From a virus: a DNA stretch of 12,149 nucleotides. A program made the position numbers and the translations under genes. Shown one piece after another: positions 8,154-11,233 of the stretch. How positions within the stretch are numbered: the first letter of the stretch is position 1; every line of letters begins with the position of its first letter. The stretch lies in UHGV virus genome UHGV-0120264. One strand, written 5' to 3'. The notes below the pieces were generated by a model, which worked only from the letters and a program-made list of their open reading frames with translations, was not told the origin of the DNA and made no database searches.

Positions 8154-8221
8154 CTTTGTTTGATTAATAATGCATCACTGTGGCAATGCTGCAGCGATTC
8201 CTTTTATCTGGAGCAGATTAA

Positions 8222-8287
8222 ATGACAGATATTATAAATAGGAATTGTTATTTAATAATATTTGAAAATGAAAATCATGGACGATAG
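8222..8287 (+). other. Decayed duplicate of a tailspike 5' end: RBS plus ATG ACA GAT ATT ATA AAT (MTDIIN...), then AT-rich sequence and a stop after 21 codons
   Basis: GGAG at 8210-8213 sits 8 nt before the ATG at 8222. The first six codons match the canonical P22/Sf6 tailspike N-terminus (MTDII(T)N). The real tailspike start is 279 bp downstream. Confidence 0.35.
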
Positions 8288-8500
8288 GAATAAAAGTAGT
8301 ACTTGTTATTTTTAAGTGACGCATTAAACGCATAAAGCATATGTCTGTTGATCAAGATTCTTGCTTGTTGTAAAATAATTGTTTTGTTCATGTTGCATAG
8401 TTTTAAAGTGAATAGAAGATTATTTTTCAAAACAATTGCATCTTTGTCTGCAGTCATTCCGTTTTCTTCAATATCTAAATTTTCAAACAGGATGACTAAT

Positions 8501-11233
8501 ATGCCTGATATAACTCCAAATGTTGTAATTGGGATGCCTTCTCAACTCTTCACTATGGCTCGTTCTTTTAAAGCCGTAGCTAATGGAAAAATTTATATCG
8601 GTAAAATTGACACTGACCCTGTAAATCCTGAAAACCAGATTCAGGTTTATGTAGAGAATGAAGATGGTTCTCACGTTCCTGTTTCGCAACCAATCGTTAT
8701 CAATGCTGCTGGATATCCTGTATATAACGGACAGATTGCCAAATTCGTTACTGTGAAAGGACACTCTATGGCTGTGTACGATGCTTATGGTACGCAGCAG
8801 TTCTATTTTCCGAATGTGCTGAAGTATGACCCGGATCAGTTACGGCAGCAATTAGAAGATCCTGATGGTGCTAAAAAATACCCTGAATTACAGATTGCAC
8901 GATGGCGGGATGATAAAGACGTTCGCGGGTGGGGGGCGGATGACTCTGGGAATAGAGATTCAACACAGGCTTTTCTTGACGCCGCATCTAGCGCAGGAAA
9001 TAGTGGTTTGGTTCATGTGCCTTCTGGTGAGTTTATAGTTGATGCATCGAAAATAGATATTTCACGCTTCTCCGGTGATGGTGTTCTAATCAGTAATGGT
9101 GTTCGCATTTCTGTTAATCCGCCGATGCAAAGTTTCTCCATTGGACAAAGAAAACTTGCGACCCTGAATTTTGGTGATGATATCAATGCGCCAACTATAT
9201 ATGCGAATGCACAAAATGCATTGCAGGGAATAGCTTGTGTAAGGCATGAAGGTATTGAGAAGGTTTTTATCACTCAACAGGTTGGAGGTTCTAACTGGGG
9301 AACGGACACCCTCACAAGGATCAGTGAGTGGCACTATACAAGCGATGGTTCAACTCTTTATGTTGTGACATTTACAGAGCCATTGCCTCTTGGTCACGGT
9401 TCAGATCTTTCTGCCACAATAGAGAACGGTGAACTATATCTGTTTACAACAACAATTGCTGAGACTGGTTCCTCTCTAGGAGGGAAGGGGTATTCAAAGA
9501 CAAAATGGAAAGGGGCATCAACATCTGCTGAAGATATAACTCATTACCGAGTATTTGGTGAGCCGGGTGATAATAATCTGATTAACCTTGCGCAGCGGGC
9601 AAGTATTTGTGTATCTAATGATGGGCGATATGTCATATTAATTGCGACATCAAACGCTGGGACTGGCCGCTTTTTATACGTATATGATCGCAAAGAAGTG
9701 GAATCTTCTTCTAACCCAATGAAAGTTAGACCGATTAATGGTCCTGTTCCACTTGTCCGTGGTAAAGGTCAGTATGGTGCAACACTTCAGGGTATTACAT
9801 CAGATAGCAGATATATTTACACAATTTGGGGTGGCGTTCCTGCAAGATGCGTAAGGACAGTACAGATTTATGATATGGGTGGTACGCTAATACGTTCATT
9901 TCCTGTATCACTTGCCGCATCACTTTATACAGAGACTCAGTTAAATGGTTCTGACTCTAAAATCGGAGTTCCGGTTAGCTTTGAGCCTGAAGGGCTGGCA
10001 ATAAGAGGTGATGAACTTGTCTGTGGTGCTATGGATGTATGGAAAAGCGCAGGGGATGTTGTAAGCCATCGTGGTAAAAATTGGGTAAGTATTGTTACTG
10101 GTGATAACAAGGGAAATCTTCCGACAAACAGGTCTTATTGGTTAAAAACATCGCTTGCAGCGACAAGTGGTGAATGGGATTCAGGCGCAACATATAAATC
10201 AGGTGATTATACTCGCAGAAATAAGCATCTGTTTGGAATAGCAAACCTGTCTGATATTCTTGGCAACCATCCAGTGCATGGTGCAGAATCCGATCCGTAT
10301 ACCGGAACCGCGCATCAATATTATGCTGGAACTGATATCGCCTTTAACCGTGAGCACGGTTCATTTACTATTGCGATATTTGACGAAGCCATTGGAGAGT
10401 ATACCAAATCCCTCGAGTTGAATTATGGAAATAACCTTAACCTGTTTGATACAGATTACGGACATGACAATAATTCATGGGTAAGTACGAAAGCAGTATT
10501 CGACTCAAACTTTCGAGGTATGCAGTTCCGTTCTAAAGATGGGAATACTGCGGGTGGTGCTTATATTGATATCCATGCTGCTGATTGTCCATCTGCGGCT
10601 GGTGAGTTGATACTTGCCTCTACAGATGGAGGTGTCGTCAGACTTAAGCAGGGGAATGTAACAGTATTTTCTGCGACTAAAGATACTACATCGACATGGG
10701 CGACGACGACATTAAGGCCAACAACTGATAACCAGGTATCACTTGGAAGGTCCGTTAACCGCTTTTCTCAGGTCTACGCAGGGACTGCAACTATAAATAC
10801 ATCTGATGCAACAGAGAAAACGGAAGTCAGAACTCTTTCCGATAAAGAGCAGGCGGTTGGGTTAGCTCTTGTTGATGAAATTGGTTTTTATCAATGGCTT
10901 GATAGTGTAAAAAATAAGGGAGCTGATGCCAGACTTCATGCCGGACTTACGGTGCAACGGGCAATGGAAATATTCAGAGAGAATGGACTTGATCCATTTA
11001 AATACGGAGCGATCTGCTATGACAGATGGGATGCATATACAGATACAGATCCAGCTGTTTATGATGATGAAGGTAACCTTGTTCGTGAGGCTATAACTAT
11101 TACGCATGAAGCAGGAGAACGCTATGCATTCAGAAATGATGAATTACAGTATCTAATGATTGCTGCATTAGGTATACGTCAGAAAAATATTATAAAGAGG
11201 ATTGAAGAACTGGAAAATAAGCTTGCAAATTAA
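8501..11233 (+). CDS. Tailspike: P22/Sf6-type head-binding N-terminal domain, unrecognised central receptor-binding/enzymatic region, putative self-cleaving C-terminal intramolecular chaperone domain
   Basis: Start taken at the ATG at 8501 (AGGA 8 nt upstream); the track's 8348 start is a TTG extension through AT-rich sequence. The first ~118 residues ([46 protein letters not shown]...NVLKYDPDQ) match the Sf6/P22 head-binding domain almost exactly. The last ~140 residues begin with SDATEK (Ser and Lys five apart), resembling peptidase S74-type chaperone domains. Confidence 0.85.

What the first reader, a model, noticed from the sequence alone, without database searches (positions are those of the whole stretch)
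8210..8503. Decayed duplicate tailspike start and a ~280-bp AT-rich insert in front of the functional start
A good RBS at 8210-8213 precedes ATG ACA GAT ATT ATA AAT (MTDIIN), matching the canonical tailspike N-terminus, but the frame then runs through AT-rich sequence to a stop after 21 codons. The functional start (MPDITPNVV) follows at 8501 with its own RBS. This looks like the footprint of a recombination that replaced the tailspike gene just inside its 5' end, or an AT-rich insertion that forced a new start. It may mark the boundary of the receptor-domain exchange.
Basis: seen in the sequence. Interest (0 to 1): 0.45.

Follow-up and report, generated by a model that had tools for sequence, protein, structure and literature searches.

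The report
Tailspike gene with signal-peptide-like alternative start
The "junk" in front of this P22-like phage tailspike gene is a recombination-delivered cassette whose last 93 bases encode a conserved, in-frame, twin-arginine (Tat) export-signal-like extension, so the gene probably makes both a normal virion tailspike and a longer form that may be exported.

Summary
GGAG (8210-8213) and ATG 8222 open a 21-codon dead-end ORF (MTDIIN...). A 266-bp stretch of 27% GC follows, then the annotated tailspike start at 8501. Insert-free relatives (720R6, ST160) start their tailspike exactly at the position of 8222, so those 13 bases are an orphaned gene start.

The insert is not inert. Its last 93 bases (8408-8500, GTG here, ATG in most relatives) are an in-frame 31-codon extension of the tailspike, (M/V)[30 protein letters not shown]. 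It is under purifying selection: dN/dS is 0.26 in this frame and above 1 in the other two.

At least five sequence classes of such extensions exist, in E. coli, E. albertii, Salmonella and Serratia. All are 31-32 residues long, carry RR-x-Phi-Phi at residues 3-7 and have an uncharged core. All keep an internal Shine-Dalgarno (SD) ribosome-binding site and a start codon at the canonical Met.

A promoter-like TTGATC-17-TAAAAT (8348-8376) has invariant hexamers across 14 variants.

Curated Tat-signal HMMs do not recognise the peptide, and export is untested. I found no description of this in the searchable literature. The closest precedent is Pantoea WceF, a Tat-signal tailspike-fold glycanase.

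Its link to the receptor-domain exchange boundary is not.

The parts
7824..8075 (-). mnt (Arc/Mnt-family repressor, 83 codons), left neighbour of the locus
   Evidence: ORF list. PHROG Arc-like/Mnt hits. Annotated as Mnt in 720R6 and ST160 at the aligned position.
8139..8153 (.). Palindrome AGACCACTGTGGTCT, resembling the Mnt operator in the Pant region
   Evidence: The resemblance to the P22 Mnt operator is from my own knowledge and was not tested.
8178..8204 (+). Hairpin plus T-rich tail, homologous to the 'tANT' terminator remnant annotated in HK620 just upstream of gene 9
   Evidence: Terminator scan. HK620 annotation. Alignment A2.
8210..8213 (+). GGAG Shine-Dalgarno of the orphaned original tailspike start
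   Evidence: Conserved with insert-free phages.
8222..8234 (+). 13-base remnant of the resident tailspike 5' end (ATGACAGATATTA)
   Evidence: Aligned base for base with the tailspike ATG of 720R6 and ST160. Present in all 31 class A loci.
8222..8287 (+). Dead-end 21-codon ORF MTDIINRNCYLIIFENENHGR* that starts at the remnant
   Evidence: The stop position is not conserved: TAA at codon 17 in the ZH063 and PM7 variants.
8235..8500 (+). Donor-derived AT-rich segment (266 bases, 26.7% GC)
   Evidence: Found only in front of P22-like tailspikes: 47 places in 44 of 5426 E. coli genomes, phage JEP4, and 14 IMG/VR contigs.
8348..8376 (+). Sigma-70 promoter-like site, TTGATC-17-TAAAAT
   Evidence: Across 14 distinct class A variants both hexamers are invariant (0 of 12 columns). 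The spacer varies at 6 of 17 columns and the flanks at 28-39%. There is no indel in the spacer. Class C has TTGATA-17-CATGAT about the same distance upstream of its extension start. Activity is not shown.
8408..8500 (+). 31-codon in-frame N-terminal extension of the tailspike (GTG start), [31 protein letters not shown]. It has the features of a twin-arginine signal peptide.
   Evidence: dN/dS against class B is 0.26 in this frame and 3.6 and 1.3 in the other two. The start is ATG in most variants. There are no indels inside it.
8452..8497 (+). Hairpin AGTCATTCCGTTT / AAACAGGATGACT that pairs extension codons 16-20 with the internal Shine-Dalgarno (tentative)
   Evidence: 76% of cells are paired against 60% in shuffles, and 7 pairs change on both sides. 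SD occlusion exceeds shuffles only in classes A and C. RNAalifold found nothing.
8489..8492 (+). AGGA Shine-Dalgarno for the canonical (short-form) start, embedded in the extension's codons Asn-Arg-Met
   Evidence: An SD plus start codon at this junction is present in four of the five extension classes and weak in the Serratia class D.
8501..11233 (+). Tailspike gene, short form (910 codons): Head_binding domain, a receptor-binding body, and a C-terminal Peptidase_S74 chaperone
   Evidence: Pfam PF09008 at 218.6 bits and PF13884 at 31.6 bits. PGAP starts homologues at this ATG.
8275..8457 (-). 60-codon antisense ORF inside the insert, judged spurious
   Evidence: It is broken by 5-base and 1-base indels in natural variants. 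Its upstream two thirds have no counterpart in class B. Its third codon positions coincide with those of the + frame, so it is a shadow ORF.

Best explanation
Origin. A donor P22-like phage carried a cassette made of an AT-rich upstream region, a 31-codon twin-arginine-type leader and a tailspike gene. This cassette recombined illegitimately into a resident tailspike gene 13 bases after its ATG. That orphaned the old SD and ATG (8210-8234), which now open a meaningless 21-codon ORF. The module has since spread among E. coli P22-like prophages by homologous recombination in its flanks, and it has been combined with different receptor-binding bodies.

Function. The insert is functional. The tailspike gene now has two in-frame starts.
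- The upstream start (GTG 8408 here, ATG in most copies) gives a long form with a Tat-signal-like leader: NRRLFFK, an uncharged core [15 protein letters not shown], and a basic tail.
- The internal AGGA and ATG 8501 give the ordinary cytoplasmic tailspike that is built into virions.
- A conserved promoter-like element (8348-8376) may let the cassette be transcribed on its own.

Proposed mechanism. A minor fraction of folded tailspike trimers is exported by the Tat pathway; one leader per trimer could be enough. In the periplasm they would act on the cell's own surface polysaccharide.

What is shown: the scar, the cassette, conservation of the frame, purifying selection, the motif, and recurrence in at least five sequence classes.

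What is inferred: translation from the upstream start, dual initiation, Tat export, and any periplasmic role.

The confidence of 0.7 is a compromise across these layers. I put about 0.9 on the scar and on a selected coding leader, about 0.5 on Tat export, and about 0.3 on a receptor-trimming role.
For: Scar:
- Alignment with insert-free phages.
- All 31 class A loci share the same junction.
- Class B has the homologous module after gene 16 with no remnant.
- E. coli A30 carries a second, independent scar of the same kind.

The extension is coding:
- The start codon is ATG or GTG in every variant, and there are no indels inside 8408-8500. Indels occur only upstream, at 8306, 8386 and 8401.
- Differences between classes A and B fall 7:3:17 by codon position (p=0.003). 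The split is 4:0:11 in the part outside the antisense ORF.
- dN/dS is 0.26 in the tailspike frame, against 3.6 and 1.3 in the other two frames.

Recurrence:
- Classes A, B, C, D and E are 31-32 residues long.
- All have M-x-R-R-x-[FL]-[FLI], followed by an uncharged run of 11-19 residues.
- Only about 6 in 100,000 random 93-mers of the insert's composition are both stop-free and carry such a motif and core.

Dual start:
- An SD plus ATG or GTG is present at the canonical start in four of the five classes and is weak in class D.
- Class E has AGGAG before an internal GTG and GGAG before the leader ATG.
- Phages with the extension (JEP4, CurroJimenez, Huey, Dewey, Louie) form plaques.

Promoter: both hexamers are invariant, the spacer is variable but always 17 bases, and class C has a comparable site a similar distance upstream of its extension start.

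Precedent: Pantoea WceF is a Tat-signal, trimeric, tailspike-fold glycanase (PMC7949094).
Against: - Curated Tat-signal HMMs do not recognise the peptide. Pfam PF10518 gives only 13.2 bits (cut-off 22.7), and only for the Serratia class. TIGR01409 gives nothing.
- Classes A and B have no Shine-Dalgarno before the upstream start.
- In this window the upstream start is GTG.
- Classes A and B lack a clean A-x-A cleavage site (SIS and SLS instead).
- The promoter-like site is no more than the shuffled-sequence expectation on its own, and class B has none.
- PGAP never calls the long form.
- There are no expression, proteomic or localisation data.
- A hydrophobic leader on a virion protein could simply be tolerated.
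- Some copies, including this window, lie in decayed prophages.
Confidence: 0.7

Rival explanations
1. Inert recombination scar. The AT-rich stretch is just donor intergenic DNA. The open frame upstream of ATG 8501 is incidental, and only the 8501 start is ever used.
For: PGAP annotates only the short form. There is no SD before GTG 8408. The Tat HMMs do not match. The scar itself is real.
Against: dN/dS is 0.26 in the tailspike frame only. The start codon is conserved and there are no indels in the extension, although indels occur just upstream. The same 31-32-residue RR leader recurs in five classes that are unrelated at the DNA level. The chance of this is about 6e-5 per sequence.
Confidence: 0.1
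2. The extension is translated but is not a Tat signal. It could be a Sec signal, an uncleaved membrane anchor, or an N-terminal peptide with a role in tail assembly or regulation.
For: The curated Tat HMMs fail. The cleavage site is atypical in classes A and B. The core in class C is short (11 residues).
Against: The RR pair is invariant at residues 3-4, followed by x-[FL]-[FLI]-K/N, in every class. The core hydrophobicity is moderate (mean Kyte-Doolittle 0.4-1.7) and the c-region is basic, which is typical of Tat rather than Sec leaders according to my general knowledge. A tailspike that has folded and trimerised in the cytoplasm is the kind of cargo that needs Tat, as in WceF.
Confidence: 0.15
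3. The insert is a small independent gene cassette (a 'moron') that encodes the 60-residue antisense ORF 8457-8275.
For: A 60-codon ORF in 27% GC DNA is unusual.
Against: Natural variants carry 5-base and 1-base indels inside it. Class B lacks its downstream two thirds. Its third codon positions coincide with those of the + frame, which explains the openness. There is no convincing SD.
Confidence: 0.03
4. The insert is a transposable element (MITE- or IS-like), or an intron, that landed in the tailspike 5' end. On this view the ATGNCNGATATWA repeat is a target-site duplication.
For: There is an imperfect 13-base direct repeat at both ends.
Against: - The repeat consists of the two homologous tailspike starts, with 3 mismatches.
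- There are no terminal inverted repeats beyond chance.
- The sequence occurs only at this one locus type: 47 of 47 places in E. coli genomes are in front of a tailspike, and none are elsewhere.
- Rfam finds no intron or RNA family.
- Class B has the same module with a different left boundary.
Confidence: 0.02

Closest known systems
P22 immI / gene 9 region (mnt - Pant/Omnt - arc - ant - tANT - gene 9) and its deleted forms in ST160, SE1 and HK620
   Same: The window has mnt, an operator-like palindrome, the tANT-like hairpin, and the GGAG and ATGACAGAT start at the same relative positions as ST160 and 720R6.
   Different: Here the gene 9 start is cut off after 13 bases. It is followed by a foreign 266-base segment and a second, complete tailspike start. 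arc and ant are absent.
Pantoea stewartii WceF (and, from my own knowledge, enterobacterial WcaM): Tat-signal, trimeric beta-helix, tailspike-fold glycanases encoded in polysaccharide gene clusters
   Same: A twin-arginine leader of about 28-31 residues precedes a tailspike-type polysaccharide-active trimer (PMC7949094).
   Different: WceF is a chromosomal biosynthesis-cluster protein with no head-binding domain and a single start. Here the leader sits on a true virion tailspike with Pfam Head_binding, and an internal start is kept for the virion form. No sequence similarity between the leaders was shown.
Dual-start phage genes that give two isoforms from one frame (for example the lambda S107/S105 and P22 gene 13 holins, and T7 gene 4A/4B; from my own knowledge)
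   Same: Two in-frame initiation codons, each with its own context, could set a ratio of long to short product. An RNA hairpin lies near the second start.
   Different: Here the isoforms would differ in cellular compartment (exported or cytoplasmic) rather than in activity or timing. Dual initiation is inferred and not shown.
Receptor-masking or receptor-destroying functions of temperate phages (O-antigen acetylase/gtr conversion, T5 Llp; from my own knowledge)
   Same: If exported, the enzyme would alter the cell's own receptor polysaccharide. The window also has an acyltransferase gene just downstream (11389-12123).
   Different: Those systems use dedicated membrane or lipoprotein genes. Here the virion's own receptor-binding enzyme would be re-used through an alternative start. 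This is entirely hypothetical.

Membership tests
P22-like tailspike (Lederbergvirus gene 9 family) | N-terminal head-binding domain (Pfam PF09008) | tested here: met
   218.6 bits against a cut-off of 24, residues 32-144 of the long form.
P22-like tailspike (Lederbergvirus gene 9 family) | Position after the ejection genes (gp20, gp16) and the mnt region, before the conversion genes or attachment site | tested here: met
   PHROG hits for gp20- and gp16-like proteins and for Mnt upstream. Acyltransferase and thrS downstream in TUM10008.
Twin-arginine (Tat) signal peptide | Z-R-R-x-Phi-Phi motif near the N-terminus (TatP-style pattern RR.[FGAVML][LITMVF], recalled from memory) | tested here: met
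   RRLFF, RRSFF, RRTLL, RRQLI and RRTFF at residues 3-7 in classes A to E.
Twin-arginine (Tat) signal peptide | Uncharged, moderately hydrophobic h-region of about 12-20 residues after the motif | tested here: met
   Runs of 15-19 residues (11 in class C), with mean Kyte-Doolittle hydrophobicity of 0.4-1.7.
Twin-arginine (Tat) signal peptide | c-region with a small-x-small signal-peptidase site, often with a basic residue | tested here: inconclusive
   Class D has AWA-K and class C has AAS-Q. Classes A and B have only SIS-K and SLS-N. Basic residues are present in all classes. No cleavage-site predictor was available.
Twin-arginine (Tat) signal peptide | Match to the curated profiles (Pfam PF10518, NCBIfam TIGR01409) | tested here: not met
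   Only class D matches, at 13.2 bits against a cut-off of 22.7. Classes A, B and C give no hit, class E was not submitted, and TIGR01409 gives none for A-D.
Twin-arginine (Tat) signal peptide | tatABC-dependent export, abolished by changing RR to KK | not testable with these tools
   Needs an experiment.
Transposable element / MITE insertion | Terminal inverted repeats, a target-site duplication, and copies at unrelated sites | tested here: not met
   No terminal inverted repeats. The 'duplication' is the pair of homologous gene starts. All 47 E. coli places are in front of a tailspike.
Known structured RNA (Rfam), including introns and sRNAs | A covariance-model match | tested here: not met
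   No hit inside 8200-8520 at E<=5. The fold z-score is -1.5.
Independent small protein gene (moron) on the minus strand | The reading frame is conserved among variants | tested here: not met
   Indels of 5 bases and 1 base at 8306 and 8401 lie inside ORF 8275-8457.

The most novel reading that the evidence does not exclude
A subset of P22-like phages (about 5% of E. coli P22-like tailspike genes) makes two products from one tailspike gene. One is the virion tailspike. The other is a Tat-exported isoform that works as a periplasmic receptor-destroying or receptor-trimming enzyme. Expressed from its own promoter in lysogens, or late in infection, it would shorten or remove the cell's O-antigen or capsule. 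That could exclude superinfecting phages or stop progeny being lost on debris. It would be a new kind of lysogenic conversion that re-uses a structural protein.
Probability: 0.3. Interest if true: 0.85.

Novelty: new variant of a known kind. Interest (0 to 1): 0.62.

Why it matters
Tailspikes are treated as purely cytoplasmic virion parts, and annotation pipelines start them at the canonical Met. A conserved export-type leader with a retained internal start would mean that a structural receptor-binding enzyme also has a second life in the cell envelope. This bears on how temperate phages alter host surface glycans, on superinfection exclusion, on why decayed prophages keep intact tailspike genes, and on the annotation and engineering of tailspike or depolymerase genes. 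It can be tested directly in available plaque-forming phages (JEP4; CurroJimenez, Huey, Dewey and Louie on E. coli K-12 with O16).

The scar itself is of modest value. It documents how tailspike cassettes move, by illegitimate joins inside the 5' end followed by homologous spread.

Tried and rejected
- **Antisense 60-codon ORF (8275-8457) as a gene.** Rejected: indels in variants break it, it has no class B counterpart, and it is a shadow-frame effect.
- **Mobile element or intron.** Rejected: no terminal inverted repeats, a single locus type, and no Rfam hit.
- **Structured RNA across the whole insert.** The fold z-score is only -1.5, and RNAalifold finds no consensus structure.
- **SD-occluding hairpin.** A stated structure shows covariation. 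Occlusion beats shuffles only in classes A and C, so I keep it as tentative.
- **Pfam and NCBIfam Tat models.** No usable hit.
- **AlphaFold2 of the long N-terminus from a single sequence.** Mean pLDDT was 41, which is uninformative. No fold search was run.
- **Word-indexed protein search with the leader profile.** It returned mostly short partial proteins, and only two carried a leader.
- **Donor for the 5' part of the insert (8235-8345).** Nothing was found outside class A in phages, E. coli genomes or IMG/VR.
- **Literature searches** for tailspike with twin-arginine, Tat, signal peptide or periplasm. Only WceF turned up.
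Full report
**1.

The window is part of a P22-like (Lederbergvirus) prophage. It contains ejection genes, mnt (7824-8075, minus strand) and a 910-codon tailspike with Pfam Head_binding.

GGAG lies at 8210-8213 and ATG at 8222. The ORF reads MTDIINRNCYLIIFENENHGR and stops at TAG 8285-8287. The annotated-type start is ATG 8501 (MPDITPNVV), with AGGA at 8489-8492. Between them, 8235-8500 is 26.7% GC, against about 41% on either side.

**2. It is a true insertion and a true remnant**

Phages vB_EcoP-720R6 and ST160 have their tailspike ATG at exactly the position of 8222 and continue directly into the gene. 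The window and phage JEP4 share about 279 extra bases after ATGACAGATATTA.

The right end of the extra DNA carries a complete second tailspike 5' end, ATGCCTGATATAAC... It aligns with ATGACAGACATTAC... of insert-free phages. So a donor segment was joined 13 bases inside the resident gene.

This insert (class A) occurs at 47 places in 44 of 5426 complete E. coli genomes, always directly in front of a tailspike. It also occurs in 14 IMG/VR contigs. Every one of the 31 loci I hold has the same left junction, which points to one founding event followed by homologous spread.

The upstream context varies between mnt-type and HK620-type. The receptor-binding body downstream also varies: the tailspikes are 685 to 910 residues long, and identity is lost only after about residue 120-160. 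The scar is therefore not the receptor-domain exchange boundary.

An independent scar of the same kind exists in E. coli A30. There, a 64-codon tailspike remnant is followed by the 3' end of a gene 16, an intergenic region and a class C cassette.

**3. The insert is not inert**

The tailspike frame stays open upstream of 8501. An in-frame GTG at 8408 gives a 31-residue extension, [31 protein letters not shown]. The start is ATG in JEP4, A3, ZH063 and PM7 and in most IMG/VR copies. GenBank starts the JEP4 tailspike CDS there.

Among 14 distinct class A sequences, indels occur only at 8306, 8386 and 8401. None falls in 8408-8500.

A diverged class B is found in 18 E. coli genomes, in IMG/VR and in E. 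albertii: MNRRSFFKSIASFVALTPLSSLSNKSNRIAH. It is homologous at the DNA level from about 60 bases upstream of the leader start. It sits directly after gene 16 with no remnant.

Comparing classes A and B over the 93 bases:
- The differences fall 7:3:17 by codon position (p=0.003).
- dN/dS is 0.26 in the tailspike frame, against 3.6 and 1.3 in the other two frames.

The antisense 60-codon ORF (8275-8457) shares third codon positions with this frame, so the bias alone cannot separate the two readings. However, the bias persists (4:0:11) in codons 18-31, which lie outside the antisense ORF. The antisense ORF is also frameshifted in natural variants.

**4. The leader recurs**

Three more classes have no detectable DNA similarity to class A:
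- Class C: MKRRTLLKSLLGLTSLLPVKFAASQNLQGKSI. Found in the phages CurroJimenez, Huey, Dewey and Louie, in four E. coli genomes and in Salmonella Kentucky.
- Class D: MDRRQLIKGFLSFIGGSTVASAAWAKYKSGP. Found in Serratia sp. H1w, with a GGGG SD before its ATG.
- Class E: MQRRTFFNNIALTAVSGSVLPSASGVDLRREP. It has GGAG before the leader ATG and AGGAG before an internal GTG.

All five classes share these features:
- They are 31-32 residues long.
- They have RR at residues 3-4, followed by x-[FL]-[FLI].
- They have an uncharged run of 11-19 residues.
- Their net charge is +4 to +6.

Random 93-mers with the insert's composition are stop-free 5.5% of the time. Of those, 0.1% have such a motif plus core.

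These are the textbook features of a twin-arginine signal peptide. The curated profiles do not confirm it, however. PF10518 reaches 13.2 bits (cut-off 22.7), and only for class D. TIGR01409 gives nothing. I therefore say 'Tat-signal-like' and do not file the leader as a member of that family.

**5. Two starts**

Every class keeps a start codon at the canonical Met. Four of the five classes also keep a Shine-Dalgarno in front of it, written into the leader's last codons:
- Class A: AGGA, 8 bases, ATG.
- Class B: AGGA, 9 bases, ATG.
- Class C: AAGG, about 10 bases, ATG.
- Class E: AGGAG, 7 bases, GTG.
- Class D has only a weak one.

Phages that carry the leader are plaque-forming isolates. They must therefore make cytoplasmic tailspike, most simply from the internal start. 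That the upstream start is also used is inferred from the selection on the leader. It has not been observed.

In class A a hairpin (8452-8464 with 8485-8497) pairs the leader with the internal SD. A stated-structure count across classes gives 76% of cells paired against 60% in shuffles, 7 pairs changed on both sides, and 25-49% for slid controls. SD occlusion exceeds shuffled upstream sequence only for classes A and C, and RNAalifold finds nothing. I treat the hairpin as tentative.

**6. Promoter**

TTGATC-17-TAAAAT lies at 8348-8376 and is the only sigma-70-like site in the region. Taken alone it is not above the shuffled expectation.

Across the 14 class A variants, though, both hexamers are invariant (0 of 12 columns). 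The 17-base spacer varies at 6 columns, the flanks vary at 28-39%, and no indel touches the spacer. With a background rate of about one third, the chance of 0 of 12 is about 0.008 (my arithmetic).

Class C has TTGATA-17-CATGAT about the same distance (30-35 nt) upstream of its extension start, and this is kept in a diverged variant. Class B has none; it has a 12-bp hairpin instead. Independent transcription is plausible but unproven.

**7. Most likely mechanism**

By inference, a minority of chains start at the leader. Trimers that contain at least one such chain are exported by Tat. The rest build virions.

The best precedent is Pantoea WceF. It is a trimeric tailspike-fold glycanase with a 28-residue Tat leader, and it trims exopolysaccharide. 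What the exported form would do here is speculation. It could trim the receptor in lysogens, exclude superinfecting phages, or protect progeny from loss on debris.

**8. Frequency and novelty**

P22-like head-binding-domain genes occur at 1215 places in 1122 of the 5426 E. coli genomes. Leader classes A, B and C account for 47, 18 and 4 of those places, about 5-6%.

PGAP always annotates the short form. Only 3 of the best 150 cluster representatives start at a leader. Full-text searches found no paper describing a Tat-type leader on a phage tailspike.

I rate this as a new variant of known kinds (tailspike, Tat leader, dual-start gene). It is not yet demonstrated to function.

**9. Caveats**

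- All evidence is comparative.
- The window's own copy uses GTG.
- The window sits in a heavily decayed prophage: an integrase lies next to a truncated capsid gene, and the window is 100% identical, over the ~90% that aligns, to part of the E. coli EC24 chromosome.
- The 5' two thirds of the insert (8235-8407) have no identified donor.
- Block 8235-8300 is unexpectedly conserved (6 of 66 columns vary) and I have no explanation for it.

Noticed in passing
window 8235-8300: The leftmost 66 bases of the insert are much more conserved among 14 class A variants (6 variable columns) than the next 100 bases (28-39% variable). They appear non-coding, because the remnant ORF's stop moves. They could be a regulator binding site or the result of recent spread. 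This is unexplained.
   Followed up: partly
window 50-4786: The prophage is decayed. An integrase gene (50-1258) and a few early-left genes abut a truncated major capsid gene (2769-3530, matching only profile positions 157-327). That fragment runs straight into the gp20-like ejection gene. The genes for gp4, gp10, gp26, gp14 and gp7 are missing. The 910-codon tailspike and the downstream acyltransferase are nevertheless intact.
   Followed up: partly
L139 2577-3180 (E. coli A30, NZ_CP092500): This is a second, independent recombination scar. The first 64 codons of a resident tailspike are joined to the 3' end of a gene 16, followed by an intergenic region and a class C leader-tailspike cassette. 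An IS66 element and a HicB fragment lie upstream.
   Followed up: yes
L069 1462-1492 (IMG/VR class B): A perfect 12-bp hairpin (TACATTAATGCA...TGCATTAATGTG) lies immediately before the leader ATG of class B. Classes A and C have a promoter-like site about 30-35 nt upstream of theirs. It could be an operator or a terminator.
   Followed up: no
window 10790-11233 (tailspike C-terminus): The tailspike ends in a Peptidase_S74 intramolecular-chaperone domain (31.6 bits). It also has weak endosialidase-stalk and CBM_5_12 matches. The central catalytic body matches no Pfam family.
   Followed up: no
L154 4001-6548 and L155 1707-3917: The class E tailspike and one class C variant are split into several short called genes in their contigs. 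This is either pseudogenisation or assembly frameshifts. The class E locus lies next to copCD-yebY in a chromosomal context.
   Followed up: no
L002 (phage JEP4, MT740315): The paper that describes JEP4 calls it Myoviridae with a 103-nm tail. The deposited 39-kb genome is a Lederbergvirus (P22-like podovirus) with Rha, KilA, mnt and a P22-type tailspike. The morphology and the genome do not match.
   Followed up: no
window 7774-7837: There are weak, sub-threshold Rfam matches (isrJ at 21.7 bits against a gathering score of 37, plus STnc420 and sroH) around the bidirectional terminator hairpin at the 3' end of mnt. They are probably just terminator resemblance.
   Followed up: no
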